A DNA stretch of 64,000 nucleotides from Limisphaerales bacterium (GTDB lineage: Bacteria > Verrucomicrobiota > Verrucomicrobiia > Limisphaerales > UBA11358), in assembly GCA_052145735.1 (NCBI GenBank), contig JBKQOA010000143.1:21916-85915 (forward strand), written 5' to 3'. This document shows, piece by piece, positions 1,071 to 59,167 of the stretch (within the stretch, counting starts at the first letter, position 1; each line of letters begins with the position of its first letter). The notes under the pieces are model-generated. The model was not told the origin of the DNA and made no database searches. It worked only from the letters and a program-made list of their open reading frames with translations. The position numbers were made by a program, and so were the translations under genes.

Positions 1071-2414
1071 ATGAGTTCAGATCGAAGAGAGGAACCCGTG
1101 CCCGCCGGCTTCAAGGTCGCCGAGGTGGGAATGCCGCCGCGGTCGATCGACAAGTACGACGCGCCATTGTTGCTCGGGGGCCGGTCGCAACGGCGGTTCC
1201 ACGTCATGGCCAAGCCCAGCGGCTCCACCTGCAACCTCGACTGCAGCTACTGCTTCTACCTGAGCAAGGAAACCCTGCCCAACGGCCCGGGCACCGGCCG
1301 GATGTCCGACGAGGTGCTCGAGCGGTTCATCCAGCAATACATCGAGGGGGTGACCGGATCGGAGGTGGTGTTCTCCTGGCAGGGCGGCGAGCCGACGCTG
1401 ATGGGACTGGAATTCTTCCGCAAGGTCGTCGCGTTCGAAAAAAAATACGCCAAGCCGTTCCAGAAAATCGAAAACGATTTGCAGACCAACGGCACACTCA
1501 TCAACGAGGAATGGTGTGAATTCCTCAAGGCGAACCGGTTCCTGATCGGCCTGAGCATCGACGGCCCGCGCGAAATGCATGACCGCTACCGGGTCACCAA
1601 GGGCGGCAAACCCACGTTCGAGAAGGTCTTCCACACCGCCAAACTCTTCCAGCGATACGGCATCCCGTTCAACACGCTGACCTGTGTCAACCGGTTCAAT
1701 GCAAAACATCCGGCGGACGTTTACCGCTTTCTCCGCAGTGACGTCGGCTCGACCTACATGCAGTTCATTCCCATCGTCGAGTACAAGGGCTTTGAACAAA
1801 CCGCGCCGCACAGGTGGGACAACGCCGCCCTGCCCCGCGACGGCGACCCCGAGGCCCGGCCGGGCCACCCGAATTCCATCGTGACCGACTGGTCGGTGGA
1901 CCCGGACGACTGGGGCGAATTCCTGTGCCGTATTTTTGACCGGTGGCGGCAAAAGGACCTGGGCAAGATTCTGGTCAACCATTTCGAGACGCTGGTGTCG
2001 CAGCACCTGGGCCTGGGCTCGCAGATTTGCATTTACGGCGAGTTCTGCGGCAAAGGCGTGGCGGTGGAACATGACGGCGACGTTTACTCCTGCGACCACT
2101 ATGTCTATCCGGAGTATCGCCTGGGCAACATCACGGACCAGGCGCTCGACACGCAGGTATTTTCCCGCACCCAGGTGCAATTCGGTTACGCCAAAAACGA
2201 GACCCTGCCGAAATACTGCCGGCAATGCCCGTATTTGAGCGATTGCTGGGGGGAATGTCCGAAAAACCGGATCATCCGCACTCCCGACGGCGAGCCTGGC
2301 CTGAATTATCTCTGCCGGGGATTTAAAAAGTTTTTTGCGCACGCCATTCCCGAAGTGGAGCGGATTGTCGCGGATTTGCGCAAGCAACCGATCCAGCCCC
2401 GGAAACGAATGTGA
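1071..2414 (+). CDS. Anaerobic sulfatase-maturating enzyme (radical SAM, SPASM domain)
   Basis: FHVMAKPSGSTCNLDCSYCFY carries the CxxxCxxC radical-SAM cluster motif. Cys-rich C-terminal clusters (CIYGEFCGKG, CDHYVY, CRQCPYLSDCWGECPKNR) are typical of anSME/AtsB-like maturases. It lies next to sulfatase genes. The start may instead be an internal Met (1131 or 1206). Confidence 0.9.
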   Translation: MSSDRREEPVPAGFKVAEVGMPPRSIDKYDAPLLLGGRSQRRFHVMAKPSGSTCNLDCSYCFYLSKETLPNGPGTGRMSDEVLERFIQQYIEGVTGSEVVFSWQGGEPTLMGLEFFRKVVAFEKKYAKPFQKIENDLQTNGTLINEEWCEFLKANRFLIGLSIDGPREMHDRYRVTKGGKPTFEKVFHTAKLFQRYGIPFNTLTCVNRFNAKHPADVYRFLRSDVGSTYMQFIPIVEYKGFEQTAPHRWDNAALPRDGDPEARPGHPNSIVTDWSVDPDDWGEFLCRIFDRWRQKDLGKILVNHFETLVSQHLGLGSQICIYGEFCGKGVAVEHDGDVYSCDHYVYPEYRLGNITDQALDTQVFSRTQVQFGYAKNETLPKYCRQCPYLSDCWGECPKNRIIRTPDGEPGLNYLCRGFKKFFAHAIPEVERIVADLRKQPIQPRKRM

Positions 2415-2713: not shown

Positions 2714-3439
2714 ATGAGAAAACAAACCTTCTTGATATTATGCCTTGCGGTGTGCGCCATCGGTCTCTTTGCCGGCTGTGCCAGCACCACCGTGACCTCG
2801 GAAAGCGAATATCAGGGATTTCTCCCCAAGCCCAAACAGGTGCTCGTCTATAATTTTGCCGTGTCGCCGGATGAGGTGGAATTGAACAGCGGCCTCGGCG
2901 CGGATATTGAGAAACTGGTTGAAAATGCGCCGCCGCGGACGGACCAGGAACGCGCCATCGGGCGGCAGGTGGCCGATGCGCTGGCCAATCATCTGGTGAC
3001 CGAAATCCAGGCCCTCGGCCTGCCGGCCTGCCGGGCATCCGGCGCACCGGCCGGCGGGAACACGCTCGAAGTCAAGGGCCAGTTCATTTCCATCGACGAA
3101 GGCAACCAGACCGAACGCGTCGTCATCGGATTGGGACTCGGACGGACGGACGTCAAAACCCTGACCCAGGTTTATGACTACCGGAACGGCAGCAACGTTC
3201 TGGTCAACCAGTTCGGGATCAATGCCAAAAGCGGCGACAAACCCGGCGCAGCCGAAACCATGGGGGCCGGCGCGCTTGCCGGTCATCTGGTGGTCTCCGC
3301 CGTGGTGAGCTCGGGCGTGGCGGTGGGCAGCGAAGCGTTCTCGGCCAACGTGGATGCCGATGCCGGCCGCACGGCCAGGAAAATCGCCGCGCAACTCAAG
3401 GACCTCTTCCTCACCGAGGGCTGGATACCGTTGCAATGA
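2714..3439 (+). CDS. Lipoprotein, DUF4410-like (paralog 1 of 3)
   Basis: Signal peptide plus lipobox (LFAGCAST). It is clearly paralogous to 15270..16010 and 17048..17803 (shared LPKP..VYDFA, GFGxG, PGAA motifs). The Met at 2714 was chosen over the upstream alternative start of the ORF track. Confidence 0.6.
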   Translation: MRKQTFLILCLAVCAIGLFAGCASTTVTSESEYQGFLPKPKQVLVYNFAVSPDEVELNSGLGADIEKLVENAPPRTDQERAIGRQVADALANHLVTEIQALGLPACRASGAPAGGNTLEVKGQFISIDEGNQTERVVIGLGLGRTDVKTLTQVYDYRNGSNVLVNQFGINAKSGDKPGAAETMGAGALAGHLVVSAVVSSGVAVGSEAFSANVDADAGRTARKIAAQLKDLFLTEGWIPLQ

Positions 3440-5417: not shown

Positions 5418-7946
5418 ATGACACGAAGCAACCTGATGAGATACGGCCTGACCGGTCTGACCGCTTCGGTGGCCTTGATGAGCACTGTTGCCCCCTCCAG
5501 CCGGGCAGAAATCCAAACCACCGGTACGCCGGGTTCGCCCGGCGCCACCACCACCATCGATGGCAAACAACTGCCGCCGCCCGACCCGAAGTTCGGCGGC
5601 GTGATCAAGGACGACGCCCTGCAATCGAAGGCCTGGTGGGCGCCGCGCATCGTGCCGCCCAAACAGGCGCCGAACATCCTGCTCATCATGACTGACGACT
5701 CGGGCTTTGGCGTGCCGAGCACCTTCGGCGGCGTCATCCCGACGCCGACGATGGACCGGCTGGCGAAGTCCGGCCTGCGCTACAACAACATCCACTCCAC
5801 CGCGCTCTGTTCGCCCACACGCGCCGCGCTCATCACCGGGCGCAATCATCATTCGGTCGGGTTTGGCGTGATTTCCGAACAATCCACGGGCTTCCCGGGC
5901 TACAACAGCATCATCAGCAAGGACAAGGCGACCATCGGCCGCATCCTGCTGGAAAACGGCTACGCCACGTCGTGGTTCGGCAAGGACCACAACACGCCGG
6001 CGTTTGAAGCCAGCTCGATCGGACCGTTTGACCAGTGGCCGACGGGCATGGGCTTTGAATATTTCTACGGGTTCGTCGGCGGCGACGCCAACCAGTGGGA
6101 ACCAAACCTGTTTCGCAACAACACCCAGATCTATCCGTTCCAGGGCAAGCCCGGCTGGAATCTCGTCACCGGCATGGCGGATGACTGCATTGATTATCTG
6201 AACCGGCTCAACCAGACGGATCCCCGCAAGCCATTCTTCTGCTATTATGTTCCCGGCGCCACGCACGCGCCGCATCATCCCACCAAGGAATGGGTGGACA
6301 AGATCCACGACCTGCATCTGTTTGACGATGGCTGGAACAAGCTTCGCGAAAGAATCTATGAAAATCAGAAGCGTCTGGGCGTGATTCCGGCGGACACCCA
6401 GATCGAGCCTTGGCCGACAAATGTACTGAAGAACTGGGATGACTGCACCGCCGATGAGAAGAAGCTCTTTATCAAACAGGTCGAGGTCTTTGCCGCCTTC
6501 GAGGCTTACAACGATTATGAAATCGGCCGCGTGATTCAGGCCGTCGAGGACATGGGCAAGCTGGACAACACGCTCATCATCTACATCAACGGCGACAACG
6601 GCACCAGCGCCGAGGGCGGTCCGATGGGCACGCCGAATGAAGTCGCATTTTTCAACGGCGTCAACATGATGCCGGTTGATGTCCAGATGAAGTGGTATGA
6701 TGTCTGGGGCACGGACAAGACCTACAATCACATGTCGGCGGGCTGGTCGTGGGCCTTTGACACGCCGTTCACCTGGTTCAAGCAGAATGCCTCGCGGTTG
6801 GGCGGCATCCGCCAGTGCATGTGCGTCTCGTGGCCCGGCCACATCAAGGACCCCGGCGCTCTTCGCCAGCAGTTCTTGCACGTGATTGACGTGGTGCCAA
6901 CTCTGCTTGAGGTTTCCGGCATTCCGGCTCCGGACACGGTGGACGGCATCAAGCAGGCGCCCATCGAGGGCACAAGTTTTGCCTACACGTTTGACGCGGC
7001 GAACGCCAACGCGCCTTCACGTCATACGACCCAGTATTTCGAGATGTTCGGCCAGTGGGCGCTCTACCACAACGGCTGGATGTTGAGCACCAAGGTGAAC
7101 CGCGCGCCATGGGAGGCCTTCGGTCCCGCCAACCCCGACCCGCTCAATAACCAGATATTCCAGCTCTACAACCTGGACAAGGACTTCAGCCAGTCCCAAG
7201 ACCTCGCCGGCCAGTATCCGGACAAGGTGAAGGAGCTGAAGAAAATGTTCATCAAGGAAGGAAAGAAGTATCAGGTTTTTCCAATGGACGCCTCGGTGGC
7301 GGCGCGCATCGTGGCGCCGCGCCCGAACATTACCGCCGGACGCACCGAATTCGTTTACACCCGGCCCATGGTCGGCCTGCCGCAGGGTGATTCGCCGATG
7401 ATTCTCGATGCCTCCTACACCTTCACGGCGGACATCGAAGTTCCCGAGGGCGGTGCCGAGGGCATGATTGTGACTTCCGGCGGCCGCTTTGGCGGTTACG
7501 GCTTCTATCTGCTCAAGGGCAAGCCGGTGTTCCTCTGGAACCTCGCTGATTTGAAGCGCATCAAGTGGGAAGGGCCGGATGCCCTCACGCCTGGCAAGCA
7601 TACGCTGGTATTTGACTTCAAATATGACGGCCTCGGCGTGGGCACGCTGGCCTTTAACAACTTCAGTGGCTTGGGCCGCGGCGGCGTCGGCACGCTCAAG
7701 GTGGATGGCAAGGAAGTCCAAACCATCACCATGGAACACACGATGCCGATGATCCTGCAATGGGACGAGAGCTTCGACATCGGCTCCGACACGCTGACCG
7801 GCGTGAACGACGAGGATTACCTGCCGCCGTTCCCGCTCACGGCCAAGCTCGACAAGCTGACCATCAAGGTGGACCGCCCGCAACTGTCGCCTGCGGACAT
7901 CCAGAAACTCGAAGAGGCGACGCGGAACAACAAACTCGCCGAATAA
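5418..7946 (+). CDS. Arylsulfatase, long form with C-terminal beta-sandwich domain (Cys-type)
   Basis: NILLIMTDDSGFG and the CSPTRAALITGRNHH formylglycine signature (C-x-P-x-R). Signal peptide MTRSNLMRYGLT. Paralog of 12089..14770 and 56819..59167. Confidence 0.9.
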   Translation: MTRSNLMRYGLTGLTASVALMSTVAPSSRAEIQTTGTPGSPGATTTIDGKQLPPPDPKFGGVIKDDALQSKAWWAPRIVPPKQAPNILLIMTDDSGFGVPSTFGGVIPTPTMDRLAKSGLRYNNIHSTALCSPTRAALITGRNHHSVGFGVISEQSTGFPGYNSIISKDKATIGRILLENGYATSWFGKDHNTPAFEASSIGPFDQWPTGMGFEYFYGFVGGDANQWEPNLFRNNTQIYPFQGKPGWNLVTGMADDCIDYLNRLNQTDPRKPFFCYYVPGATHAPHHPTKEWVDKIHDLHLFDDGWNKLRERIYENQKRLGVIPADTQIEPWPTNVLKNWDDCTADEKKLFIKQVEVFAAFEAYNDYEIGRVIQAVEDMGKLDNTLIIYINGDNGTSAEGGPMGTPNEVAFFNGVNMMPVDVQMKWYDVWGTDKTYNHMSAGWSWAFDTPFTWFKQNASRLGGIRQCMCVSWPGHIKDPGALRQQFLHVIDVVPTLLEVSGIPAPDTVDGIKQAPIEGTSFAYTFDAANANAPSRHTTQYFEMFGQWALYHNGWMLSTKVNRAPWEAFGPANPDPLNNQIFQLYNLDKDFSQSQDLAGQYPDKVKELKKMFIKEGKKYQVFPMDASVAARIVAPRPNITAGRTEFVYTRPMVGLPQGDSPMILDASYTFTADIEVPEGGAEGMIVTSGGRFGGYGFYLLKGKPVFLWNLADLKRIKWEGPDALTPGKHTLVFDFKYDGLGVGTLAFNNFSGLGRGGVGTLKVDGKEVQTITMEHTMPMILQWDESFDIGSDTLTGVNDEDYLPPFPLTAKLDKLTIKVDRPQLSPADIQKLEEATRNNKLAE

Positions 7947-8737: not shown

Positions 8738-8864
8738 CGTGCTCCCGTTTGATTGCAGGTCAACGATTCAAATATCCCGATCGTGACTTGCGTCGTTGAT
8801 TTGCCATTGTCGACAAAACTTCCGGGGACTACGATGCCAGAGCCAATCAGCCGAAAGGAAAATT
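8738..8864 (+). promoter_or_regulatory. Conserved 5' leader, copy A (repeat of 11962..12088)
   Basis: In a hand alignment to 11962..12088 most positions are identical. It ends in an AAAGGAAAATT Shine-Dalgarno-like box just before the start codon. ORF-track entries starting MICHC at 8796 and 12019 are artefacts of this repeat. Confidence 0.6.
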
Positions 8865-9800
8865 GTGAAGCGAAACAACCTAATGAGATATGGCCTGCGG
8901 GTGGCCTTGCTGCTGGCGGTTCTGCTGCTGCCACGGCCCGGTCAGGCCCAGGACATTGATCCGCGGCGCTGGAGTCATTTGCCCATCGGCGCCAACTTCG
9001 CCGGCGCGGCCTATGCCTACACCACCGGCGACATCTCCCTGGACCCCGTGCTCCGAATCCAGAACGGCCAGTTCGATGTCCAGACCGTCGCGGTGAAATA
9101 CATCTACAGTTTCGAGCTGCTCGGCAAGTCGGCGCGCGTGGACATCGCCCAGCCCTATCAGTTCGGCCACTGGTCAGGCCTGATCAACGGCGTGCAAGCC
9201 GCGACAAGCCGGGCGGGATTTGCCGACACGTCCGTGCGCTTCGCGGTGAACCTGATCGGGGCACCGCCGCTCAAGGGCAAGGAGTTTGCTGCTTACCAGG
9301 CCACCAACGCGGATCACGAGACGATTGCGGGTGTGGGCCTCGGCCTGCAACTTCCCGACGGCCAGTATTACAGCGACAAACTGATCAACTTGGGCGACAA
9401 CCGGTTCACGTTCCGTCCCCAAATCGGCGCGACGCACAACTGGGGCAAGTGGTCGGCGGAGCTTACCTTTCAGACCTGGTTTTTCACCGACAACGATGAT
9501 TTCTTCAACGGCAATAAACTGGAGCAGGACCCGCTCTACACAACCGATGCGAATCTGATTTACAACTTTCGCCCCGGCGTGTGGGTGGCCGGCAGTTTTG
9601 GCTACAGCGGTGGCGGCAATGCCACCATAAACGGGGTGTCGAAAAACGACAGCGAGAGCAGCGTCGGCTTCGGTTTCAGCGTCGGCCTCCCGATCAGCCG
9701 CGCCGTGGGGGTGAAGCTCTACTACATCGGCACCCGCAGCGAAGTCCACACGGGACAGGACTCGGACACGTTCGCCGCCGCCATCTCCGTGATGTGGTGA
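8865..9800 (+). CDS. Outer-membrane beta-barrel protein (MetA-pathway/phenol-degradation-like family), paralog of 27456..28487
   Basis: The GTG at 8865 aligns with the ATG of the sulfatase at 12089 inside the shared leader and gives signal peptide (M)KRNNLMRYGLRVALLLAVLLLPRPGQAQ. It shows alternating beta-strand patterns and a C-terminal aromatic residue (..AAISVMW). An alternative start is the ATG at 8883. Confidence 0.65.
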   Translation: MKRNNLMRYGLRVALLLAVLLLPRPGQAQDIDPRRWSHLPIGANFAGAAYAYTTGDISLDPVLRIQNGQFDVQTVAVKYIYSFELLGKSARVDIAQPYQFGHWSGLINGVQAATSRAGFADTSVRFAVNLIGAPPLKGKEFAAYQATNADHETIAGVGLGLQLPDGQYYSDKLINLGDNRFTFRPQIGATHNWGKWSAELTFQTWFFTDNDDFFNGNKLEQDPLYTTDANLIYNFRPGVWVAGSFGYSGGGNATINGVSKNDSESSVGFGFSVGLPISRAVGVKLYYIGTRSEVHTGQDSDTFAAAISVMW

Positions 9801-10663
9801 GCTGCCCGCAAGATTTGAACATGAAAATTCCGGCCACTCAACCGATATTTCCTGCCGTCCTCATCTTCCAGCTTGTATTTTTCGATAGTTGTTTCAGAAA
9901 GTGGTTCACGAACCATCTCGTCGTCCCAATTGAAAACGGGGTCGTTGTCCTTTTTGTAAAAAAGAATGTCGTGGTGCGTTCGCTTCCATGTTGTCTTGAT
10001 TGAGCTGCGAGTCGAAAACATCCACACAAGCGAGTTCAAGTGATTGTCAGCGCCGAAGACTTCATCCATCACGCAACGTATCATGTGAACTTTTCGATAA
10101 TCACAATGGAGATAGATACATCCGCCGGGAGCGAGCAATTCTTTTAGCAGTGCCAGGCGCTCAAACATGAATTGCAGAAAATTGTCTTTCGCCCAAATGT
10201 CTGCATACTGAATCTGTTCACCAAGCGCGTATCCTTCCCCAGCAATTTCGTTCTTTCCCGCCGGGCCGCGCAGCGAGACTTTGCGGACATAATCCGCACC
10301 ACTGTCAAACGGCGGGTCAATATAAATCATGTCCACTTCACCTCGAAATCCGTTGGCAAGCAGATGGGCAAGCACTTCCTTGTTGTCGCCGTGAAACAGC
10401 AAACCGCCTTTGCTCGCAAATTCGCCAGCCAGATTGAAATTCTCAACGTGCTGCGCCGGGAACGCCGTGACATGGCGCAACGGACGTTTCCCCACCCAGG
10501 ACAACATCGGTCGCCCCTTCGCGGCGGTAATGTTAACACTTGTTTGCTTTGGCGGCGCGGGCGTCTCGGCGGCGGGCGTTGGCTTGGCTGCGCGCGCTTT
10601 CTTGCCGCTGGCTGATTTTGGTGCGGCGGATTTTTTCACTTTGGTTTTCTTGTTCGTTGGCAT
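9722..10663 (-). pseudogene. Truncated N6/N4 DNA methyltransferase (type III Mod-like); C-terminal catalytic third missing
   Basis: It has LSWVGKRP and DMIYIDPPFDSGADY (DPPF/Y motif). The downstream TQKP and FxGSGT AdoMet motifs are absent. Homology stops near 9806, and the ORF then reads antisense into the 3' end of the barrel gene. The DNA is visibly richer in A+T than its flanks. Confidence 0.7.
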
Positions 10664-12088: not shown

Positions 12089-14770
12089 ATGAAACGAAAC
12101 CACCTGATGCGATACGGCCTGACCGCCACCGTGACCCTGGCGACTTCACTTGCCCCGTCAAGCCGGGCGGAAATCGAAACCACCGGCGTCATCGGTGCGC
12201 CCAATGCCACCACCACCATCAGCGGCAACCAACTGCCGCCGCCCGACCCGGCATTCGGCGGCGTGATTGCAGAGAAAGCCGCCGACTCGAAATCATGGTG
12301 GGCACCGCGCGTCGTGCCGCCCAAGGATGCGCCCAACATTTTGCTCATCATGACGGACGATTGCGGCTTTGGCTCGCCCAGCACGTTCGGCGGAGTGATT
12401 CCGACCCCGGCGCTGGATCGCATCGCGACGAACGGATTGCGCTACACGCAGTTTCATTCCACGTCGCTGTGCTCGCCGACGCGCGCGGCGCTGATCACCG
12501 GGCGCAACCATCACGTCGCCGGCTTCGGCATCGTGGGCGAGGCAGCCACGGGTTTTCCCGGATACGACTCAGTCATCCGCAGGGAGTGCGGGACGGTCGG
12601 TGAAATTCTGAAGGAGAACGGCTACGCGACGGCATGGTTCGGCAAGGACCACAACACGCCCTTTTATCAGGCGAGCCAGGCTGGGCCGTTCGACCAGTGG
12701 CCGACCGGGCTGGGCTTTGACTACTTTTACGGGTTCATCGGCGGCGACACCAGCCAGTGGGAACCAGGCAACTTGTTCCGCAACACCACCCCGATCCATC
12801 CGTATCTCGGCCAGGAGGGGAAATGGAACCTCACCACCGCGATGGCCGATGACGCGATCCAGTATATGAGGCAGCTCAAGGAGATCGCGCCGGGCAAACC
12901 GTTCTTTGTCTATTACGTTCCCGGCGGCGTCCATGCGCCGCATCATCCGACCAAGGAGTGGATTGACAAAATCAGCGCCATGCATCTGTTCGACGGCGGC
13001 TGGGACAAATTGCGCGAGACCATCTTTGCCAACCAGAAGCGGCTGGGTTTGCTGCCGGCAAACGCGGAACTCACACCGTGGCCGAAGGAATTGCAGCACT
13101 GGGACCAACTGTCCAGTCTTGAGAAAACGATGTTCATCAAGCAAGCCGATGTGTTCGGCGCGTATCTCGCCTACACCGATTACGAAATTGGCCGGGTGAT
13201 TCAGGAGGTCCAGGACGAGGGCAAATGGGACAACACGCTCATCATTTACATCAGCGGCGACAATGGGGCCAGCGCCGAGGGCATGACGAACGGAACGCCG
13301 AACGAATTCACGACCTTCAACGGGGTCTCAGTGCCGGTCAAGGCCCAGTTCCTGTTCTATAACGTTTTGGGATCCGACCTGACTTACCCGTTGTATGCCG
13401 CGGGCTGGGCGTGGGCGTTTGACACGCCTTTCAAGTGGGTCAAGCAGGTGGCCTCGCATTTCGGCGGCACTCGGCAGGGCATGTGCATGTCCTGGCCCGG
13501 CCACATCACCGACCTGGGCGGCATCCGCACGCAGTTCCATCACGTCATTGACATCGCGCCGACCCTTCTGGACGTGACCGGCATCCCCTTGCCGGACACC
13601 ATCAACGGCATCAAGCAGCGGCCCATGGACGGCGTGAGCCTGACCTACACCTGGCCCAAGGAAAATGCCGACCTGCCCTCCAAGCGGACGACTCAGTATT
13701 TTGAGATGCTCGGCAACCGCGCCGTTTATCATGACGGCTGGGTGGCGGCCACCACGCCCGTGAACTTGCCGTGGGAATTGAGCACCAAGACGCCGCCGGA
13801 TGTCCTCACCGGTTACAACTGGGAACTTTATTGCATCTCAAATGACTTCACCGAGGACCACGATCTGGCCACCGCGATGCCCGACAAGCTCAAGGAAATG
13901 CAGAAGCTCTTCTACCAGGAGGCCGCGAATTTCGGTGTGCTGCCGCTGGACAATTCGACACTCGCCCGGTTTATAACGCCGCGTCCGAGCGCGACGGCGG
14001 GTAAAACCAACTTCACCTACTCGGGCGAATTGAGCGGTGTGCCGGACTCCTGCGCGCCGGACATCCTGGACCGCTCCTACTCCATCACGGCGGCAGTCAC
14101 CATTCCTCGAGGCGGCGCGGAGGGCATGATTGTCACTGAAGGCGGACGGTTTGGCGGCTACGGCCTGTTCCTGAGCCAGAGCTACAACTACTGGTTCCGA
14201 AGTCAGGGGTTCAGGATTGCCGGCTGGGGACTGCTCGTCGCCGGATTCCTTCTGATCTTGGCCAGCCGGAGCTGGAAGTGGTCGCGCTGGAAACTGCGCC
14301 TTGGCCAGGGGATGCTGACGCTCGGCTTGCTCTGGGCGGTCGCTGTGATGGCCACGGGTGTTCTGGACCTGGGCAAAGGCAGAGTGGTGTTTCTCTACAA
14401 TCTGCTGGGTCTCGATCGGACGGCATGGACCGGGCCGGCGCTGAAGGCCGGCACGCACACCATCGCGTTCGACTTCAAATTTGACGGCCCGGGCCTGGGC
14501 AAAGGCGGCACCGGCCGGTTGATCGTGGATGGTGAAACCGTGGCTACGAAATCACTGGAACACACAACGCCCATCATGTTCCCGGAGGACGAGACCTTTG
14601 ATGTGGGGCTGGACAACGGCACGCCGGTTTCCCTCCTCAGATATCCCTACAACTGTCCGTTCAAGTTCACCGGGACGATTGACAAGCTGACATTTGATCT
14701 CGGCCCGAAGCAGTTGGGCTTGGGGGATCAGGAGAAAGCCACCGAAATCGGCTCCGACGTGAACAACTAA
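12089..14770 (+). CDS. Arylsulfatase, long form (Cys-type), with a 67-aa hydrophobic insertion in the C-terminal domain
   Basis: NILLIMTDDCGFG and CSPTRAALITGRNHH. It is collinear with 5418..7946 except for the extra segment 14174..14374, which encodes two TM-like helices. Confidence 0.9.
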   Translation: MKRNHLMRYGLTATVTLATSLAPSSRAEIETTGVIGAPNATTTISGNQLPPPDPAFGGVIAEKAADSKSWWAPRVVPPKDAPNILLIMTDDCGFGSPSTFGGVIPTPALDRIATNGLRYTQFHSTSLCSPTRAALITGRNHHVAGFGIVGEAATGFPGYDSVIRRECGTVGEILKENGYATAWFGKDHNTPFYQASQAGPFDQWPTGLGFDYFYGFIGGDTSQWEPGNLFRNTTPIHPYLGQEGKWNLTTAMADDAIQYMRQLKEIAPGKPFFVYYVPGGVHAPHHPTKEWIDKISAMHLFDGGWDKLRETIFANQKRLGLLPANAELTPWPKELQHWDQLSSLEKTMFIKQADVFGAYLAYTDYEIGRVIQEVQDEGKWDNTLIIYISGDNGASAEGMTNGTPNEFTTFNGVSVPVKAQFLFYNVLGSDLTYPLYAAGWAWAFDTPFKWVKQVASHFGGTRQGMCMSWPGHITDLGGIRTQFHHVIDIAPTLLDVTGIPLPDTINGIKQRPMDGVSLTYTWPKENADLPSKRTTQYFEMLGNRAVYHDGWVAATTPVNLPWELSTKTPPDVLTGYNWELYCISNDFTEDHDLATAMPDKLKEMQKLFYQEAANFGVLPLDNSTLARFITPRPSATAGKTNFTYSGELSGVPDSCAPDILDRSYSITAAVTIPRGGAEGMIVTEGGRFGGYGLFLSQSYNYWFRSQGFRIAGWGLLVAGFLLILASRSWKWSRWKLRLGQGMLTLGLLWAVAVMATGVLDLGKGRVVFLYNLLGLDRTAWTGPALKAGTHTIAFDFKFDGPGLGKGGTGRLIVDGETVATKSLEHTTPIMFPEDETFDVGLDNGTPVSLLRYPYNCPFKFTGTIDKLTFDLGPKQLGLGDQEKATEIGSDVNN

Positions 14771-14787: not shown

Positions 14788-15165
14788 ATGAAAAAACTGC
14801 TCATTTTCACCGGCGCGGCCGAAGCCGCCACGGGCGTGGCGTTGATGGTCGTCCCCGCCCTGGTCGGGCGACTGCTGCTGGGCGCGGAGCTGGCCGGGGT
14901 TGCCGTCGTGGTGGCCCGCGTGGCGGGCATCGCGTTGCTCGCCCTGGGCATTGGCTGTTGGCCGGGACCGGCATCGCTCGGCATGCTGACCTACAACGCG
15001 CTCGCCACGGTGTATTTTGCCTGGCTCGCTCTCGGCCGCGAATGGGTCGGGCCGCTGTTGTGGCCGGCCGCCGGGTTGCACGCCGTCCTTGCGATCCTTC
15101 TCGGCCGCGCCTGGCTCAGGAGCCTCAAGACGGGCGGGCGGAACAACCAGACCGGTGAACAATGA
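14788..15165 (+). CDS. Small integral membrane protein (about 4 TM helices), unknown function
   Basis: Four hydrophobic stretches. It starts 18 nt after the sulfatase stop on the same strand. Confidence 0.55.
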   Translation: MKKLLIFTGAAEAATGVALMVVPALVGRLLLGAELAGVAVVVARVAGIALLALGIGCWPGPASLGMLTYNALATVYFAWLALGREWVGPLLWPAAGLHAVLAILLGRAWLRSLKTGGRNNQTGEQ

Positions 15166-15269
15166 AGTGAACAACCAATGATTCGCCTGTGAGCCACGCG
15201 GTCTGCTACCGTTCCTTCCGGTGCGGCCCGCGAATTCACGCACGAAACCTGAAACTGGAGAAACAAACC

Positions 15270-16010
15270 ATGAAAACACAAACTATGAAAATATTATGCA
15301 GCTTGATATTAACGCCTCTCGCCCCGTGTCTGTTGGTGGTATTATTCGCCAGCGGCTGCGCTTCGACCCAGGTCAGCAACCAGCAGCAAATCGTGACCGG
15401 TCAACTTCCGAAGCCCGGCAACATCTGGGTGTACGACTTCGCCGCCACCGCCGCCGGTGTGCCCGCGGAGTCCGCGCTGGCTGGCCAGCCCGACCTGGAC
15501 ACGACGCCCCAGACGCCCGAGCAGATTGCGGAAGGACAGAAATTGGGGGCTGAGATTGCCACGGAGCTGGTCGCCGATATCCGCAAGCTGGGAATGCCCG
15601 CCGATCGGGCCGGGACGGATACGCAACCGCAGATCAATGACCTGGTCATCCGGGGTTACTTCCTTGCCATCCAGAAAGGCAATGAAGCCGAGCGCGTCGC
15701 CATCGGCTTTGGCAAGGGCGAATCCGATTTAAAAACAGCCGTGGAAGGTTTTCAGATGACGGCCACGGGGCTGCGCAAAATCGGTTCCGGCGACCTCAAT
15801 GCCAGCGGCAGCAAATCCCCGGGGGCGTCCCTGGGTGTCGTCGGCCTCATCGCCACCCACAACCCGGCGGGACTCATCATCAGCGGCGGGATGCATGTGT
15901 ATGGCGAGGAAAGCGGCAGCAGCAAGGTCGAGGGCCGGGCCAAGCAGACCGCCCAGGAAATCGCCGCCCAGCTCAAGATCCGGTTCCAGCAACAGGGCTG
16001 GATCAATTAA
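15270..16010 (+). CDS. Lipoprotein, DUF4410-like (paralog 2 of 3)
   Basis: Lipobox FASGCAST. It is highly similar to 17048..17803 (QPQINDLVIRGYF, GFGKGESDLKTAVEGFQMTA, NPAGLIISGGMHVYGEESG). Confidence 0.65.
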   Translation: MKTQTMKILCSLILTPLAPCLLVVLFASGCASTQVSNQQQIVTGQLPKPGNIWVYDFAATAAGVPAESALAGQPDLDTTPQTPEQIAEGQKLGAEIATELVADIRKLGMPADRAGTDTQPQINDLVIRGYFLAIQKGNEAERVAIGFGKGESDLKTAVEGFQMTATGLRKIGSGDLNASGSKSPGASLGVVGLIATHNPAGLIISGGMHVYGEESGSSKVEGRAKQTAQEIAAQLKIRFQQQGWIN

Positions 16011-17011: not shown

Positions 17012-17047
17012 TTGGGGAAACAAATCATCCGCGCCGGACCGCCGCCC

Positions 17048-17803
17048 ATGAACACAAATCCCCGCAAATTACCGGAAGGTCCCCCGGTTCTTCGGAGAAG
17101 GCTGATGATCCTCGTTCCGTTTCTATTCGCCATGGCTTGGGCCACGGGGTGCGCCTCGACCAAGGTGACCGACCAGGAAACACTCGTCACCGGGTCGCTC
17201 CCGCGGCCGGGCAACATCCTGGTGTATGACTTTGCCGCCACGGCCGCCGATGTTCCGACCAACTCCACCCTGGCCCGCCATTATTCCGTGGTCAACACGC
17301 CCCAAACCGCCGGGCAGATTGCGGCGGGACGGCAGCTGGGCATTGAGATTGCGGCGGAACTGGTCGGGCGCATCCATGGCCTGGGAATGCCAGCCGAGCG
17401 GGTCTGGGCGGGAACGCAACCGCAGATCAACGACATCGTGATCCGGGGTTATCTGATTTCCGTAAACGAAGGCAGCACCACCAAGCGGGTCACCATCGGC
17501 TTTGGCTACGGCGCGTCCGAGTTGCGAACGGCGGTTGAAGCTTACCAGATGACCGCCCAAGGGTTGCGCAAAATCGTATCCGACACATTGGATTCCGGCG
17601 GCAGCAAAACTCCGGGAGCGGCTTTGGGAGTCGCCGCCTTCATGGTCACCGCCAACCCGGCAGGACTCATCATCAGCAGCGGGATGAAAGTGTATGGCGA
17701 GGAAAGCGGCCGCAGCAAAGTTGAAGGCCGGGCCGACGCGACCGCCAAGGAAATTGCCGCCGTGCTCAAGAAGCAATTTCAGGAACAGGGCTGGATAAAA
17801 TGA
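17048..17803 (+). CDS. Lipoprotein, DUF4410-like (paralog 3 of 3)
   Basis: Lipobox AWATGCAST. Paralog of 15270..16010. The start is uncertain (17012, 17048 or the Met at MILVPF). Confidence 0.65.
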   Translation: MNTNPRKLPEGPPVLRRRLMILVPFLFAMAWATGCASTKVTDQETLVTGSLPRPGNILVYDFAATAADVPTNSTLARHYSVVNTPQTAGQIAAGRQLGIEIAAELVGRIHGLGMPAERVWAGTQPQINDIVIRGYLISVNEGSTTKRVTIGFGYGASELRTAVEAYQMTAQGLRKIVSDTLDSGGSKTPGAALGVAAFMVTANPAGLIISSGMKVYGEESGRSKVEGRADATAKEIAAVLKKQFQEQGWIK

Positions 17804-17891: not shown

Positions 17892-18647
17892 ATGAGTCCC
17901 ATGACCACAGGTTTGCTGGTGTTCGGCTGCGTCCTCGGAGCCGCGTTGCTGGCGATGCGTTTGCGCACCGCGCTGCCACCGCATCACCTGAGCGCGGACA
18001 CCAAGGATACGGTGAAGCTCGCCATGGGATTGGTGGCGACCATGACCGCGCTGGTCCTCGGGCTGCTGGTCGCCTCGGCGAAGGGTTCGTACGACACCGC
18101 CCGGAGCGAGATGACCCAGATGGCGGCCAAATTCGTTGTCCTCGACCGCATTCTGGCCAATTACGGACCGGCGGCGGCGGAGCCGCGCAAACAGCTCCGC
18201 GAGGCCGCCGAACACCTCGTGGTTCTCCTCTGGCCGGCCTCGAGGTCCCAATCCGCCGAACTGGACCCCAGCGCCTCCAACGGCGAGGCGCTATACGACG
18301 CAATCCAGCAACTGTCACCGCAAAACGATGAGCAGCGCTGGCTCAAATCCCAGTGCCTGGCCCTCGCCATCGAACTCGGCCAGATGCGCTGGCTGCTGTT
18401 TGAGCAGTCGGACACTTCGATCTCCACACTCTTCCTGGTCGTCGTGGTCTGCTGGCTGGCAATAATATTCTTCAGCTTCGGCATGTTCGCGCCCTCCAAC
18501 AGCACGGTCATTGCGACGCTGTTCGTGGCGGCGCTGTCGGTGTCAGGCGCCATCTTCCTGATTCTGGAACTGGACCGGCCGTTCGGCGGGCTGATCCAGA
18601 TTTCCAGCCAGCCCATGCATAACGCGATCAATCATCTCGGACGTTAG
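17892..18647 (+). CDS. DUF4239-like membrane protein
   Basis: N-terminal TM, a helical middle part (DTKDTVKLAMGLVATMTALVLGLLVASAKGSYD) and two C-terminal TMs ending in ELDRPFGGLIQISSQP. This matches my recollection of DUF4239. Confidence 0.55.
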   Translation: MSPMTTGLLVFGCVLGAALLAMRLRTALPPHHLSADTKDTVKLAMGLVATMTALVLGLLVASAKGSYDTARSEMTQMAAKFVVLDRILANYGPAAAEPRKQLREAAEHLVVLLWPASRSQSAELDPSASNGEALYDAIQQLSPQNDEQRWLKSQCLALAIELGQMRWLLFEQSDTSISTLFLVVVVCWLAIIFFSFGMFAPSNSTVIATLFVAALSVSGAIFLILELDRPFGGLIQISSQPMHNAINHLGR

Positions 18648-56818: not shown

Positions 56819-59167
56819 ATGACTACAAAACGATCCTTCACGACCGCGATGTGCGGATTTTTCGTCGCAAGCGCCGGGGCCGCCGTTAACGACGGCTCGG
56901 TGCTGCCATTTACGCCGCCGCCCACGGCCAGCATCGCCAAACCGCGCCTGCAAGACTCGGTGATGAAGTGGCGCGTGGAACCGGACCGCCTCCCAACCAA
57001 CGCCCCAAACATTCTCATCATCCTCATTGATGACGTCGGCTTTGGCACGCCGGACACCTTTGGCGGTTTCGCCCACACGCCCACGCTCACCAAATTGCGC
57101 GACGAGGGCGTCTGCTACAATCGTTTCAACACCACGTCGATCTGTTCGCCCACCCGGGCGGCGTTGCTGACCGGGCGCAACCACCAGCGGGTCGGTTCCG
57201 GCACGATTGCCGAGCGCGCGGTGGATTTTGACGGTTACACCGGCATCATCCCGATGACGGCCGCCACCATTCCAGAAATTCTGCGCAACTACGGCTACAA
57301 GACCGCCGCCTTCGGCAAATGGCACAACACGCCCGCCGACCAGACCACCGCCATGGGGCCGTTCACTTACTGGCCCACCAGCTATGGTTTCGATTTTTTC
57401 TACGGTTTCCTTGCCGGCGAGACTTCCCAGTATGAGCCACGCCTTTTCCGAAACACTACTCCTATCGAGCCGCCGCACGATCCGCATTATCACCTGACCC
57501 AGGACATGGCCGACCAGGCGATCGGCTGGCTGAAAGAACATCGCGCCTACGCGCCGGACAAACCCTTCTTCATGTATTGGGCGCCGGGCGCGGCCCACGG
57601 TCCGCACCAGGTTTTCCAGGAATGGGCGGACGAGTATAAAGGCCACTTCGATCAGGGCTGGGACAAATTGCGCGAGGAAATTTTCGCCCGCCAGAAGGCG
57701 CTCGGCTGGATTCCGGCCGATGCCGAACTCACGCCGCGCGCCTCCACCATGCCGGCGTGGGACAGCATTCCCGAATCCGAACGCGCCTTCCAGATACGCC
57801 TCATGGAAGTGTTCGCCGGTTTCGTGGAACACACCGATGCCCAGGTCGGCAAGTTGGTTGATTATCTCGACGCCACCGGCCAGCGCGACAACACGCTTAT
57901 CTTTTACATCTGGGGTGACAACGGCTCATCGGCCGAAGGCCAGAACGGTTCCATCAGCGAACTGCTCGCCAATAACCAGATTCCCAACACCATCGCCCAG
58001 CAAATCGCGGCGATGAATGAACTGGGCGGGTTGAAGGCGCTCGGCGGGCCGCAGATGGACAACATGTATCACGCCGGCTGGGCTTGGGCTGGTGACACGC
58101 CGTTCAAATATACAAAGCTCATCGCCTCGCATTTCGGCGGCACTCGCAATCCACTCGTCGTTTCCTGGCCGGCCAAAATCAAACCGGACCCGACGCCGCG
58201 TTCGCAGTTCTATCATGTCAACGACGTCGCACCGACCATTTATGATCTGCTCGACATCAAACAGCCCAAGGTCGTCAATGGCTTCAAGCAGGATCCGATG
58301 GACGGCGTCAGCATGGCAGCGTCCTTCTTCAACCGCGCCGCGCCGGAGAACAATCATATTCAGTATTTCGACAACAACGGCAGCCGTGGCATCTACCACG
58401 ACGGCTGGTATGCCTGCACGTTCGGGCCGTTGATTCCGTGGTTAAACGCACAACCGGGACTCGCCGATTGGGATTCCGCCAAGAATGTCTGGGAACTCTA
58501 TGACTTGACCAAGGACTTTTCCCAGGCGCATGACCTGGCCGCCGAGAACCCGAACAAGCTCGCCGAACTCCAGAAACTTTTCTCCGCGCAGGCCAAGGAA
58601 AACCAGGTTTTCCCGATCGGCGCCGGCATCTGGTTGCGCCTGCATCCGGAGGACATCAAGACTACGCCTTACAAGAGCTGGATTTTTGATGACACCACCA
58701 CCCGTATGCCGGAGTTCACCGCACCGGGGATCGGCAAAAAGAGCAACACCGTGACCATTGACCTCGAAACCGGCGAAAATGCCAGCGGTGTGCTCTACGC
58801 GCTTGGTGGTGCCGGTGGGGGACTCACTTGCTACATGGACAATGGTTACCTTTGTTATGAATACAACCTGATGATCATCGAGCGTTACCTCGCGAAGTCG
58901 CCGGACAAGCTGACGCCCGGCAAACACCAGATCGTCGTGGATACCACCATCGCCAAACCCGGCGCGCCGGGCGAGGTGGTTTTGTCCGTGGACGGGAAGG
59001 AAGTCGCCCGCGCGAGCTTGAAACGCACCGTGCCCGCTTTATTTACCGCCAGCGAAACTTTCGATGTGGGCGTGGATCTCGGCTCGCCAGTTTCCCGCGA
59101 CTACTTTGATCGTGCTCCGTTCAAGTTCGACGGCAAGCTCAGCCAGGTGAAGGTGGAGCTGAAATAG
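56819..59167 (+). CDS. Arylsulfatase, long form (Cys-type)
   Basis: NILIILIDDVGFG and CSPTRAALLTGRNHQ. C-terminal domain collinear with 5418..7946. Confidence 0.9.
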   Translation: MTTKRSFTTAMCGFFVASAGAAVNDGSVLPFTPPPTASIAKPRLQDSVMKWRVEPDRLPTNAPNILIILIDDVGFGTPDTFGGFAHTPTLTKLRDEGVCYNRFNTTSICSPTRAALLTGRNHQRVGSGTIAERAVDFDGYTGIIPMTAATIPEILRNYGYKTAAFGKWHNTPADQTTAMGPFTYWPTSYGFDFFYGFLAGETSQYEPRLFRNTTPIEPPHDPHYHLTQDMADQAIGWLKEHRAYAPDKPFFMYWAPGAAHGPHQVFQEWADEYKGHFDQGWDKLREEIFARQKALGWIPADAELTPRASTMPAWDSIPESERAFQIRLMEVFAGFVEHTDAQVGKLVDYLDATGQRDNTLIFYIWGDNGSSAEGQNGSISELLANNQIPNTIAQQIAAMNELGGLKALGGPQMDNMYHAGWAWAGDTPFKYTKLIASHFGGTRNPLVVSWPAKIKPDPTPRSQFYHVNDVAPTIYDLLDIKQPKVVNGFKQDPMDGVSMAASFFNRAAPENNHIQYFDNNGSRGIYHDGWYACTFGPLIPWLNAQPGLADWDSAKNVWELYDLTKDFSQAHDLAAENPNKLAELQKLFSAQAKENQVFPIGAGIWLRLHPEDIKTTPYKSWIFDDTTTRMPEFTAPGIGKKSNTVTIDLETGENASGVLYALGGAGGGLTCYMDNGYLCYEYNLMIIERYLAKSPDKLTPGKHQIVVDTTIAKPGAPGEVVLSVDGKEVARASLKRTVPALFTASETFDVGVDLGSPVSRDYFDRAPFKFDGKLSQVKVELK

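What the first reader, a model, noticed from the sequence alone, without database searches (positions are those of the whole stretch)
14174..14374. In-frame 201-nt insertion encoding two TM-like helices inside the C-terminal domain of a secreted sulfatase
Paralogs 5418..7946 and 56819..59167 run ..GGRFGGYGFYLLKGKPVFLWNL.. without interruption. The 12089 gene instead has GGYGLFL-[SQSYNYWFRSQGFRIAGWGLLVAGFLLILASRSWKWSRWKLRLGQGMLTLGLLWAVAVMATGVLDLG]-KGRVVFLYNL. The insert contains two ~17-residue hydrophobic helices joined by a W/R/K-rich loop, which resembles a membrane hairpin placed in what should be a soluble beta-sandwich. It could tether the enzyme to a membrane, or it could be the footprint of a small inserted element that preserves the frame.
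Basis: seen in the sequence. Interest (0 to 1): 0.6.

Follow-up and report, generated by a model that had tools for sequence, protein, structure and literature searches.

The report
Membrane-hairpin cassette inside a bacterial arylsulfatase
A secreted bacterial sulfatase carries a conserved two-helix hydrophobic hairpin inside its lectin-like tail domain; the hairpin most likely pins the enzyme to the cell membrane, occurs in sulfatases of many phyla, and entered this gene by recombination with a relative.

Summary
ORF 12089..14770 (893 aa) is a Cys-type arylsulfatase with a signal peptide. Compared with the paralog at 5418, it has 66-67 extra residues (nt 14174-14374). These form the only two membrane-grade hydrophobic segments in the protein, joined by a +5 loop.

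It is not a one-off, an artefact or a mobile-element scar. About half of the 120 closest homologs carry a homologous hairpin at the same site. So do more than 119 species-representative genomes, including Acidobacteriota, Gemmatimonadota, Verrucomicrobiota, Planctomycetota, Nitrospirota, Bacteroidota, Proteobacteria and a Synechococcus. In 150 distinct hairpins:
- neither hydrophobic core contains a charged residue;
- the connecting loop averages +4.3 net charge with almost no acidic residues;
- length is nearly fixed;
- dN/dS is about 0.37.

AlphaFold2 predicts a confident helical hairpin (aa 706-729 and 733-758) projecting from a ConA/LamG-like beta-sandwich. All forms have Sec-type signal peptides. 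The best reading is a two-pass anchor in the inner membrane, with the loop in the cytoplasm. This is analogous to, but not homologous with, the stem of human steroid sulfatase.

In this gene the hairpin arrived by homologous recombination. The backbone sits among hairpin-less syntenic orthologs, while nt ~14168-14490 groups with a different lineage (0 of 1000 permutations reached the observed clustering).

Membrane insertion itself is inferred, not shown.

The parts
12089..14770 (+). Arylsulfatase gene (893 aa), the hairpin-bearing 'long' form. It is identical to an NCBI protein named 'MAG: arylsulfatase [Limisphaerales bacterium]'.
   Evidence: ORF list. PF00884 scores 182 bits at aa 82-499. 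100% match to P0001. Foldseek and phmmer match P. aeruginosa arylsulfatase 1HDH over aa 81-617.
12089..12169 (+). Sec-type signal peptide (aa 1-27, MKRNHLMRYGLTATVTLATSLAPSSRA|E). It has no twin-arginine motif.
   Evidence: Read from the sequence. All 120 homologs, long and short, have comparable n-h-c signal peptides ending A-x-A/AQQ. Seven carry an RR-x-hydrophobic pair (loose regex), none a full S/T-R-R-x-F-L-K Tat consensus. The cleavage site is inferred, not predicted by a tool.
12470..12484 (+). Formylglycine motif C-S-P-T-R (aa 128-132); Cys-type sulfatase.
14006..14710 (+). C-terminal beta-sandwich domain (about aa 640-874), ConA/LamG/CBM40-like. It is the host of the hairpin.
   Evidence: AF2 strands at 641-697 and 763-874. 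Foldseek PDB hits to CBM40, laminin-G, galectin and botulinum HCN domains are weak: E 4e-4 to 1e-2, target-normalised TM up to about 0.5. No PDB sequence match covers this domain.
14174..14374 (+). The reported insert (aa 696-762) relative to the in-window paralogs. Relative to the closest orthologs the indel is aa 698-756 (nt 14180-14356).
14216..14263 (+). Hydrophobic core 1 (aa I710-A725), within AF2 helix 706-729 (nt 14204-14275).
   Evidence: KD19 of 1.91. Helix pLDDT is 86-92. The corresponding columns hold 0-1% charged residues across 150 hairpins, and one Gly is invariant.
14264..14299 (+). Basic connecting loop SRSWKWSRWKLR (aa 726-737), net +5. Inferred to lie in the cytoplasm.
   Evidence: Read from the sequence. 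Family-wide, loop net charge averages +4.3 (minimum +2) with 0.03 acidic residues per loop.
14300..14365 (+). Hydrophobic core 2 (aa L738-L759), within AF2 helix 733-758.
   Evidence: KD19 of 1.96. AF2. Column profile.
14168..14490 (+). Recombination tract (codon 694 to about codon 790-805): the hairpin plus about 40 downstream codons, of P0017-like ancestry. The 5' breakpoint lies in the conserved GGRFGGYGLFLS-coding patch. The 3' breakpoint lies in or just before the conserved GPGLGKGGTG-coding patch.
   Evidence: Informative-site test, pairwise nt identities, junction alignment and tree incongruence. The 3' end is only bracketed, at nt ~14450-14515.
14788..15165 (+). Conserved small membrane protein (125 aa, about four hydrophobic segments, no Pfam or NCBIfam family), 17 nt downstream of the sulfatase. 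Possible membrane partner; its role is not established.
   Evidence: Present directly downstream in all five close loci, both short and long forms. Present in at least 41 of 104 hairpin loci from many phyla. No family hits.
1071..2414 (+). Anaerobic sulfatase-maturating radical-SAM enzyme (anSME). It supplies the formylglycine modification in the cytoplasm before export.
   Evidence: TIGR03942 scores 491 bits against a cut-off of 349. PF04055 plus SPASM. The function and location of anSME are from established knowledge.
5418..7946 (+). Hairpin-less paralog, 60% identical, with no loop at the site. It serves as the comparator and outgroup.

Best explanation
The insert is a conserved two-helix transmembrane hairpin module. 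It defines a large, previously uncharacterised 'long' subfamily of Sec-exported, Cys-type bacterial arylsulfatases. Inferred mechanism: after cytoplasmic formylglycine formation, the N-terminal signal peptide threads the unfolded chain through SecYEG. The first hydrophobic helix (about aa 706-729) acts as a stop-transfer segment. The short basic loop (aa 726-737) stays in the cytoplasm. The second helix (about aa 733-758) re-initiates translocation, so the remaining strands of the C-terminal lectin-like beta-sandwich also reach the periplasm and complete the fold. The result is a periplasmic sulfatase pinned to the cytoplasmic membrane by an internal hairpin. The topology is the same as that of human steroid sulfatase, but the hairpin is non-homologous and sits in a different domain. 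In this particular gene the module is not ancestral. A short-form gene acquired the hairpin plus about 40 flanking codons (nt ~14168-14490) by homologous recombination with a hairpin-bearing relative of the P0017 lineage, with crossovers in two nearly invariant glycine-rich coding patches. Shown: presence, conservation, distribution, hydrophobicity, charge pattern, predicted helical hairpin, and mosaic ancestry. Inferred: actual membrane insertion, topology, and the biological benefit (retention at the membrane, or access to membrane-proximal or lipophilic sulfate esters).
For: Module and conservation:
- 59 of the 120 best homologs carry a homologous 64-67-aa hairpin at the identical site.
Essentially all translate to hairpin sulfatases from at least 8 phyla.
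- Median dN/dS is 0.37 in the hairpin against 0.17-0.19 in the flanks.

Membrane character:
- KD19 peaks of 1.91 and 1.96 are the only ones above 1.6; the highest value elsewhere in the mature protein (aa 1-40 excluded) is 1.03.
- Both cores hold 0% charged residues. Loop positions are 55-90% K/R and at most 1% D/E, and acidic residues occur only in the two outer flanks.
- AF2 predicts helices 706-729 and 733-758 with pLDDT 86-94, between strands 689-697 and 763-772.
- Both forms have Sec-type signal peptides with no full Tat consensus motif.
- An anSME gene lies in the window.

Recombination:
- The backbone tree places P0001 inside short clade A (191/200), and P0001+P0017 are sisters in 0/200 replicates.
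- The hairpin-tract tree makes P0001+P0017 sisters in 181/200.
- The window gene sides with P0017 at 15 of 26 informative nt sites in aa 755-800, against 0-13% elsewhere. Max chi-square is 115, reached by 0 of 1000 permutations.
- The short orthologs are normally similar to one another across the tract.
- Breakpoints fall in conserved patches.
- The syntenic orthologs L001, L003 and L005 lack the hairpin.

Analogue: the STS two-helix 40-A stem (PMC4591525).
Against: - No experiment and no dedicated topology predictor was available, so membrane insertion is inferred from hydropathy, charge and AF2.
- A simple sum on the Hessa scale gives marginal insertion energies of +0.0 to +1.3 kcal/mol.
- The first hydrophobic core is only 16 residues, and a nearly invariant Arg sits just before it.
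- The periplasmic flanks are also net positive, about +2 each. The charge asymmetry therefore rests mainly on the absence of acidic residues from the loop.
- I could not obtain model coordinates, so the position of the hairpin relative to the active site is unknown.
- The recombination donor is not sampled: the best match is 72% aa and 79% nt. Trees are neighbour-joining only.
- A chimeric metagenome assembly could mimic a mosaic and was not tested by read mapping.
Confidence: 0.65

Rival explanations
1. The hairpin is hydrophobic but does not span the inner membrane. It could be a protein-protein interface, for example for homo-oligomerisation or for docking onto the conserved 125-aa membrane protein encoded downstream. 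Or it could be a monotopic insertion into one leaflet of the inner or outer membrane.
For: The first hydrophobic core is short (16 aa) and Hessa-scale sums are marginal. A small membrane protein is conserved next to both long and short forms, so the enzyme may work at the membrane through a partner anyway. Invariant or near-invariant Gly residues in helix 1 suggest tight helix packing.
Against: A loop with +4 to +5 net charge cannot sit in the bilayer core, which argues against a re-entrant or monotopic hairpin. AF2 helices of 24 and 26 residues are long enough to span a bilayer. Both cores are uniformly apolar rather than amphipathic, with 0% charged residues. Docking onto an integral membrane partner would in any case place the hairpin in the membrane.
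Confidence: 0.2
2. The hairpin is ancestral to the whole short-plus-long group and was lost repeatedly by clean deletion. The window gene simply retained it and there was no recombination.
For: The short forms' 8-aa loop GxxGxGRG matches the C-terminal end of the long insert, so a 59-aa deletion would convert long to short. Deletions are mechanistically easy.
Against: This requires about 8-10 independent deletions with identical boundaries, because P0001 and P0017 each nest inside different short clades. It also predicts that the hairpin tree mirrors the backbone tree. Instead P0001+P0017 are sisters for the tract (181/200) and never for the backbone (0/200). It does not explain the sharp block of P0017-type nucleotides downstream of the hairpin.
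Confidence: 0.08
3. Assembly artefact: the MAG contig is a chimera of a short-form gene from one population and about 320 nt from a long-form gene of another population in the same sample.
For: The source is a metagenome-assembled genome. The breakpoints lie in conserved sequence, which is where assemblers can switch.
Against: It needs two switches within about 320 nt that preserve the frame. The conserved patches are short, roughly 20-30 nt of near identity, which is below typical assembly k-mer sizes. The flanks show no coverage-type or composition anomaly in GC. An independent second case of a hairpin in a short-type backbone exists in another sample (P0017). Even if this were true, it would affect only this gene's history, not the existence of the hairpin family.
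Confidence: 0.05
4. The insert is the footprint of a mobile element such as a MITE, an IS remnant, an intein or another selfish insertion that happens to preserve the reading frame.
For: It is patchily present among close relatives.
Against: There are no terminal inverted repeats or target-site duplication around it. There is no other copy in 64 kb. GC content matches the gene. It is always at the same site in the same protein family, with conserved residues, nearly fixed length and dN/dS of 0.37. At 67 aa, and read by eye to lack the terminal splicing residues (no tool applied), it cannot be an intein.
Confidence: 0.02

Closest known systems
Human steroid sulfatase (STS, PDB 1P49/8EG3)
   Same: It is an S1 formylglycine sulfatase whose globular part lies on the non-cytoplasmic side. 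It is held in the membrane by two antiparallel hydrophobic helices, a stem of about 40 A, with a short connecting loop (PMC4591525). STS appears among the sequence hits to the catalytic domain. Helix lengths are comparable (24 and 26 residues here).
   Different: The STS hairpin is inserted in the catalytic domain. Here it is in an extra C-terminal lectin-like beta-sandwich, beyond the region that aligns to any solved sulfatase (aa 81-617). No sequence relationship between the hairpins was seen. STS sits in the eukaryotic ER membrane and this enzyme in a bacterial inner membrane. This is convergence, not homology.
Pseudomonas aeruginosa arylsulfatase PAS/AtsA (PDB 1HDH)
   Same: It is the best structural and sequence match for the catalytic domain (phmmer E 1e-54 over aa 81-617; Foldseek E 1e-29; target-normalised TM 0.82). 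It has the same CxPxR chemistry.
   Different: PAS is 536 aa, with no C-terminal beta-sandwich and no hairpin.
Hairpin-less 'short' orthologs of the same family (e.g. P0002, P0006, P0014; 830-836 aa)
   Same: They are 83-87% identical outside the insert. They have the same signal peptide and the same neighbours (small membrane protein, DUF4410 lipoprotein, upstream paralog).
   Different: They have an 8-aa loop K-GxxGxGRG where the window gene has the 67-aa hairpin, and they are presumably soluble in the periplasm.
Membrane-anchored sulfatase-fold enzymes of the alkaline-phosphatase superfamily (LtaS, EptA/MCR, OpgB)
   Same: They combine a PF00884-type periplasmic domain with membrane helices. 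This comparison rests on established knowledge and was not tested here.
   Different: Those enzymes have an N-terminal bundle of about 5 transmembrane helices and transfer phospho-groups from lipids. Here the N-terminus is a cleavable-type signal peptide and the anchor is an internal hairpin in a C-terminal domain.

Membership tests
Type I (S1) formylglycine-dependent sulfatase | Pfam PF00884 sulfatase domain above the gathering score | tested here: met
   182.3 bits against a cut-off of 25, at aa 82-499.
Type I (S1) formylglycine-dependent sulfatase | C/S-x-P-x-R formylglycine motif near the N-terminus of the domain | tested here: met
   CSPTR at aa 128-132, within LCSPTRAALITGRNH.
Type I (S1) formylglycine-dependent sulfatase | Alkaline-phosphatase-like fold matching solved sulfatases | tested here: met
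   Foldseek to 1HDH gives E 1e-29 and target-normalised TM 0.82. phmmer E is 1e-54.
Type I (S1) formylglycine-dependent sulfatase | A maturation enzyme is available | tested here: met
   anSME at 1071-2414 scores 491 bits on TIGR03942, above the cut-off of 349.
Type I (S1) formylglycine-dependent sulfatase | Sulfate-ester hydrolase activity and substrate | not testable with these tools
   No NCBIfam equivalog reaches its cut-off. The substrate is unknown.
Helical-hairpin (two-pass) membrane anchor | Two segments of about 19 or more residues with membrane-grade hydrophobicity and no charges | tested here: met
   KD19 of 1.91 and 1.96. Cores hold 0% charged residues across 150 hairpins. Core 1 is only 16 aa plus a flanking L-F.
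Helical-hairpin (two-pass) membrane anchor | Predicted antiparallel alpha-helical hairpin protruding from the soluble fold | tested here: met
   AF2 helices 706-729 and 733-758 with pLDDT 86-94, between strands 689-697 and 763-772. Protrusion and antiparallel packing were not measured because no coordinates were available.
Helical-hairpin (two-pass) membrane anchor | Charge bias consistent with topology (positive-inside loop), given exported flanks | tested here: met
   Loop net charge averages +4.3 (minimum +2) with 0.03 acidic residues per loop. Acidic residues occur only in the flanks. Sec-type signal peptides in all forms. Caveat: the flanks are also net positive, about +2 each.
Helical-hairpin (two-pass) membrane anchor | Demonstrated membrane integration and topology | not testable with these tools
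   Needs fractionation, reporter fusions or a structure. No TMHMM- or DeepTMHMM-type tool was on hand.
Steroid-sulfatase-type stem (homology to the STS hairpin) | Hairpin inserted at the STS position in the catalytic domain and related in sequence | tested here: not met
   The hairpin lies at aa 706-758 in the C-terminal domain. STS aligns only to aa 81-227 of the query. The two are analogous only.
Mobile-element or intein-type insertion | Terminal repeats or target duplication, multiple copies, or splicing motifs | tested here: not met
   No flanking TIR or TSD. Single copy in the window. The hairpin-only profile search returned one hit, a fragment of a long-form sulfatase; the search also missed the known full-length members, so absence from other families is not established.
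Recombinant (mosaic) gene | Statistically supported block of alternative ancestry, with incongruent trees | tested here: met
   Max chi-square of 115, reached by 0 of 1000 permutations. Backbone and tract bootstrap support conflict: 0/200 against 181/200. Breakpoints mapped. Methods were NJ trees and a home-made test; RDP and GARD were not run.

The most novel reading that the evidence does not exclude
A portable membrane-anchor cassette. A hairpin of about 60 aa, flanked by two nearly invariant glycine-rich coding patches, is swapped by homologous recombination among orthologous and paralogous arylsulfatase genes of soil and freshwater bacteria. The swap toggles the enzyme between a free periplasmic form and an inner-membrane-tethered form. 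The tethered form has converged on the architecture of human steroid sulfatase. It may act on membrane-proximal or lipophilic sulfate esters, together with the conserved small membrane protein encoded downstream.
Probability: 0.4. Interest if true: 0.7.

Novelty: new variant of a known kind. Interest (0 to 1): 0.55.

Why it matters
Arylsulfatases drive organic-sulfur mineralisation in soils and sediments. Whether the activity is cell-bound or free is a long-standing practical question in soil enzymology (my own background knowledge, not checked here). This work identifies a large and phylogenetically broad subfamily, most often seen in Acidobacteriota. In it, a Sec-exported sulfatase carries a built-in two-helix anchor inside a lectin-like domain. 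I found no description of this arrangement for bacterial sulfatases in the searchable literature.

The finding matters in four ways:
- It gives a sequence marker, (S/T)-x-S-(F/Y)-N-(W/Y)-W ... G-L-L-L ... basic loop ... G-x-G-(R/K)-G, that separates tethered from soluble forms in metagenomes.
- It provides a natural pair of about 85%-identical orthologs, with and without the hairpin, for testing what tethering does.
- It is a bacterial, genetically tractable analogue of the steroid-sulfatase membrane stem.
- It is a clean example of a membrane-anchoring module moved between genes by recombination at conserved motifs, and of a transmembrane hairpin tolerated inside a beta-sandwich loop.

Tried and rejected
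1. Mobile element or scar. A repeat search around the insert found only short chance matches and no flanking TIR or TSD. Composition is unremarkable. BLASTN of the 201 nt against the window found only itself. Rejected.

2. Hairpin-only profile search (A4) against 5.8 billion proteins. It returned a single 97-aa fragment of a long-form sulfatase and, oddly, not the known full-length members. It is therefore uninformative about other protein families. I cannot claim the hairpin is absent elsewhere.

3. Representative-library search with the C-terminal domain. It found 3775 clusters at E<=1e-3, but the top 150 were mostly fragments, so it was not useful for counting long against short forms.

4. 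Protein-level mosaic test. The signal was only weak (5 of 9 long-type sites clustered; 21 of 500 permutations reached it). The region aa 755-812 showed no clear protein-level preference. The DNA-level test with syntenic orthologs was decisive.

5. A matching flanking tract in P0017, which would mark a second recombinant. No clear block was seen at the protein level. Its mosaic status rests on tree position only.

6. Closer donor. The best hairpin match among 124 loci is still P0017/L002 at 72% aa.

7. Literature. Five searches found no bacterial sulfatase with an internal transmembrane hairpin. Only the STS precedent turned up.

8. The antisense ORF 13838..14458 (206 aa) overlapping the insert was considered and dismissed. 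It is a high-GC shadow ORF, and conservation and dN/dS follow the + frame.

9. Geometry of the hairpin relative to the active site. Not possible, because model coordinates are not exposed.
Full report
**1. The observation**

ORF 12089..14770 on the + strand encodes an 893-aa protein.

The protein is a type I sulfatase:
- PF00884 scores 182 bits at aa 82-499.
- It has a Cys-type formylglycine motif, CSPTR, at aa 128-132.
- It has an N-terminal signal peptide.
- It is identical to a GenBank protein from a Limisphaerales (Verrucomicrobiota) MAG.

Aligned with the two in-window paralogs, it carries 66 extra columns at this point. For the 56819 gene it is only homologous.

Kyte-Doolittle 19-residue means reach 1.91 and 1.96 inside the insert. 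Nowhere else in the mature protein do they exceed 1.03. The connecting loop SRSWKWSRWKLR has five basic and no acidic residues.

**2. It is a family feature, not a one-off**

The 120 best database homologs fall into two length classes, about 833 aa and about 890 aa. In a multiple alignment, 59 of them carry a homologous hairpin of 64-67 aa at precisely the same site. The other 61 have an 8-residue loop, K-GxxGxGRG, which matches the C-terminal end of the long insert. The difference is therefore a clean 59-aa indel (aa 698-756).

I scanned one genome per bacterial species with a degenerate DNA pattern spanning the junction (GGYGLFLS-x-S-[YF]-N-[YW]-W). On translation, essentially all are hairpin-bearing sulfatases; a few contain frameshifts.

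The carriers are:
- mostly Acidobacteriota;
- also Gemmatimonadota, Verrucomicrobiota, Planctomycetota, Nitrospirota, Bacteroidota, Beta- and Gammaproteobacteria, Armatimonadota and a Synechococcus;
- among cultured strains, Acidobacteriaceae KBS 89, Tunturiibacter gelidiferens X5P2 and Flavobacterium laiguense LB2P30.

Nothing marks the segment as a mobile element:
- There are no flanking inverted or direct repeats.
- GC content is ordinary.
- There is no second copy in the window.

**3. What the module looks like across 150 distinct copies**

Length is almost fixed. Measured with three flanking residues, 99 copies are 70 aa, and the shorter classes differ only in the loop. The column profile shows four zones:
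- An N-terminal interfacial stretch with an aromatic belt (F/Y-N-W/Y-W, with one Trp invariant).
- A 16-residue apolar core with 0-1% charged residues and an invariant Gly.
- A loop in which K/R occupy 55-90% of positions and D/E at most 1%. Mean net charge is +4.3 and the minimum is +2.
- A 19-residue apolar core with no charges, ending in G-x-G-(R/K)-G-K.

Median dN/dS over 367 pairs is 0.37 in the hairpin and 0.17-0.19 in the flanking 60 codons. The hairpin is under purifying selection, relaxed in the way expected for transmembrane segments.

AlphaFold2 predicts two helices, aa 706-729 and 733-758:
- In the full-length run their pLDDT is about 86-89.
- In the run on the C-terminal domain alone it is above 90.
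- The helices lie between beta-strands 689-697 and 763-772.

The host domain has no sequence match in the PDB. By Foldseek it weakly resembles ConA-like sandwiches such as CBM40, laminin-G, galectin and botulinum HCN (E 4e-4 to 1e-2). The catalytic domain matches P. aeruginosa arylsulfatase 1HDH.

**4. Mechanism (inferred)**

Long and short forms all start with Sec-type signal peptides; none carries a full Tat consensus motif. An anaerobic sulfatase-maturating enzyme is encoded at 1071-2414. From established knowledge, that enzyme acts in the cytoplasm on the unfolded chain.

With the N-terminal 690 residues exported, a hydrophobic helix followed by a strongly basic, acid-free loop and a second hydrophobic helix is the textbook arrangement for a stop-transfer and re-insertion hairpin. 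The loop stays in the cytoplasm. Both halves of the beta-sandwich end up in the periplasm, where a hairpin's adjacent ends allow the sandwich to close.

The enzyme would thus be tethered to the inner membrane. Its short orthologs would be free in the periplasm.

The closest precedent is human steroid sulfatase, which is held in the ER membrane by two antiparallel hydrophobic helices about 40 A long (PMC4591525). That hairpin sits in the catalytic domain, so the resemblance is convergent.

Caveats:
- No topology predictor or experiment was available.
- Simple Hessa-scale sums are marginal.
- The first core is short.
- The outer flanks are also net positive.

**5. How this gene got its hairpin**

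Outside the insert, the window protein is 83-87% identical to a clade of short forms and at most 73% identical to any long form.

Three of those short forms sit in syntenic loci. All three share the 125-aa membrane protein directly downstream and a DUF4410 lipoprotein gene further downstream; L005 also shows the 5418-type paralog upstream.

In bootstrapped NJ trees that exclude aa 690-815:
- the window protein nests inside this short clade (191/200);
- the short crown is monophyletic without it in only 24/200 replicates;
- the main long clade is monophyletic (198/200);
- a second long form, P0017, nests in a different short clade (187/200);
- P0001 and P0017 are never sisters (0/200).

For the hairpin tract (aa 696-790), P0001 and P0017 are sisters in 181/200 replicates.

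At the DNA level I used the three syntenic short orthologs and P0017:
- There are 359 informative sites. The window gene sides with P0017 at 15 of 26 sites in aa 755-800, against 0-13% in every other bin.
- Max chi-square is 115, for aa 694-787 (18 of 23 sites). None of 1000 permutations reached it.
- The short orthologs are normally similar to each other across the tract (0.83-0.90 nt identity).
- In the tract, the window gene drops to 0.76-0.77 against the short orthologs and rises to 0.79 against P0017.

Synonymous divergence from P0017 is lower in the tract (0.73-0.92) than upstream (1.33).

The junction alignment places the breakpoints as follows:
- The 5' crossover lies between codons 693 and 694, inside the nearly invariant GGRFGGYGLFLS-coding patch.
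- The 3' crossover lies between about codon 788 and 809, at the nearly invariant GPGLGKGGTG-coding patch.

The hairpin plus about 40 codons was therefore imported by homologous recombination from a P0017-like gene.

A loss-only history would need many identical deletions and cannot explain the incongruence. A chimeric assembly is unlikely but was not tested.

**6. Comparison and novelty**

The enzyme is a bona fide S1 sulfatase. The hairpin is not homologous to the STS stem, not an N-terminal bundle as in LtaS or EptA, and not a mobile element.

Literature searches found no description of a bacterial sulfatase with an internal transmembrane hairpin. Neither Pfam nor NCBIfam models the module or the C-terminal domain.

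I rate it a new variant of a known kind. It is a widespread but unrecognised membrane-tethered arylsulfatase subfamily. It shows evidence of cassette-like exchange of the anchor and is a convergent analogue of steroid sulfatase.

**7. Verdict**

The membrane-hairpin interpretation is supported in silico. The inserted-element interpretation is replaced by recombinational acquisition of a conserved module.

Interest is moderate (0.55). The feature is common in nature rather than unique to this genome. It is nonetheless undescribed, mechanistically interpretable and directly testable.

Noticed in passing
window 14788-15165 (+); also L001:10539-10925, L002:10707-11090, L003:5097-5471, L005:8520-8897: A small membrane protein of about 125 aa, with about four hydrophobic segments and conserved AEAATG, VGRLLLG and ARVAG motifs, matches no Pfam or NCBIfam family. 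It lies directly downstream of the sulfatase in both short- and long-form loci and in at least 41 of 104 hairpin loci across phyla. This looks like a conserved two-gene module of unknown function.
   Followed up: partly
window 1071-2414 (+): Anaerobic sulfatase-maturating radical-SAM/SPASM enzyme (TIGR03942, 491 bits). It sits in a window that holds four sulfatase genes with C-x-P-x-R motifs, at nt 5808, 12470, 54490 and 57143.
   Followed up: partly
window 2597-3439, 15189-16010, 17012-17803 (+); 8796-9800 (+); 17892-18647 (+): Three DUF4410 lipoprotein-like paralogs, a Phenol_MetA_deg-type outer-membrane channel protein and a bestrophin-like anion-channel protein are interspersed with the sulfatase genes. 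The same families recur in the syntenic loci L001 and L005, which suggests a conserved envelope-located sulfate-ester utilisation cluster.
   Followed up: no
window 9722-10663 (-); L003:5736-8239, L004:3866-6396: A DNA methylase gene lies between the two sulfatase paralogs in the window. In the orthologous loci of P0002, an Eco57I/BsuBI-PstI restriction-modification pair is inserted just after the small membrane-protein gene. The neighbourhood appears to be a hotspot for restriction-modification gene insertion.
   Followed up: no
L015, L044, L048, L054, L064, L081, L095 (hairpin region): Several MAG loci, all but one (L081) from MFD-series assemblies, have the sulfatase reading frame broken within or just after the hairpin-coding segment. 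This could be sequencing error in the assemblies or real pseudogenisation; the two were not distinguished.
   Followed up: no
L008, L024, L027, L029, L035, L056 and similar; L019, L032, L096, L117: Lineage-specific hairpin variants exist with shorter cytoplasmic loops. The Acidobacteriaceae type is ...WRSKPGWSRRFGY... and the Gemmatimonadales type is ...LANRGGKFARGLAYFG.... Insert lengths are 63-67 aa instead of 70 (measured with three flanking residues). The two hydrophobic cores are kept.
   Followed up: partly
P0017 / L002:8001-10676: P0017 is a second hairpin-bearing gene whose backbone groups with short forms (83.6% identity to short P0113 against 78.9% to the best long form; 187/200 bootstrap). 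It also has a run of four long-type residues at aa 255-496. It may be an independent or older recombinant, but no clear flanking tract was resolved.
   Followed up: partly
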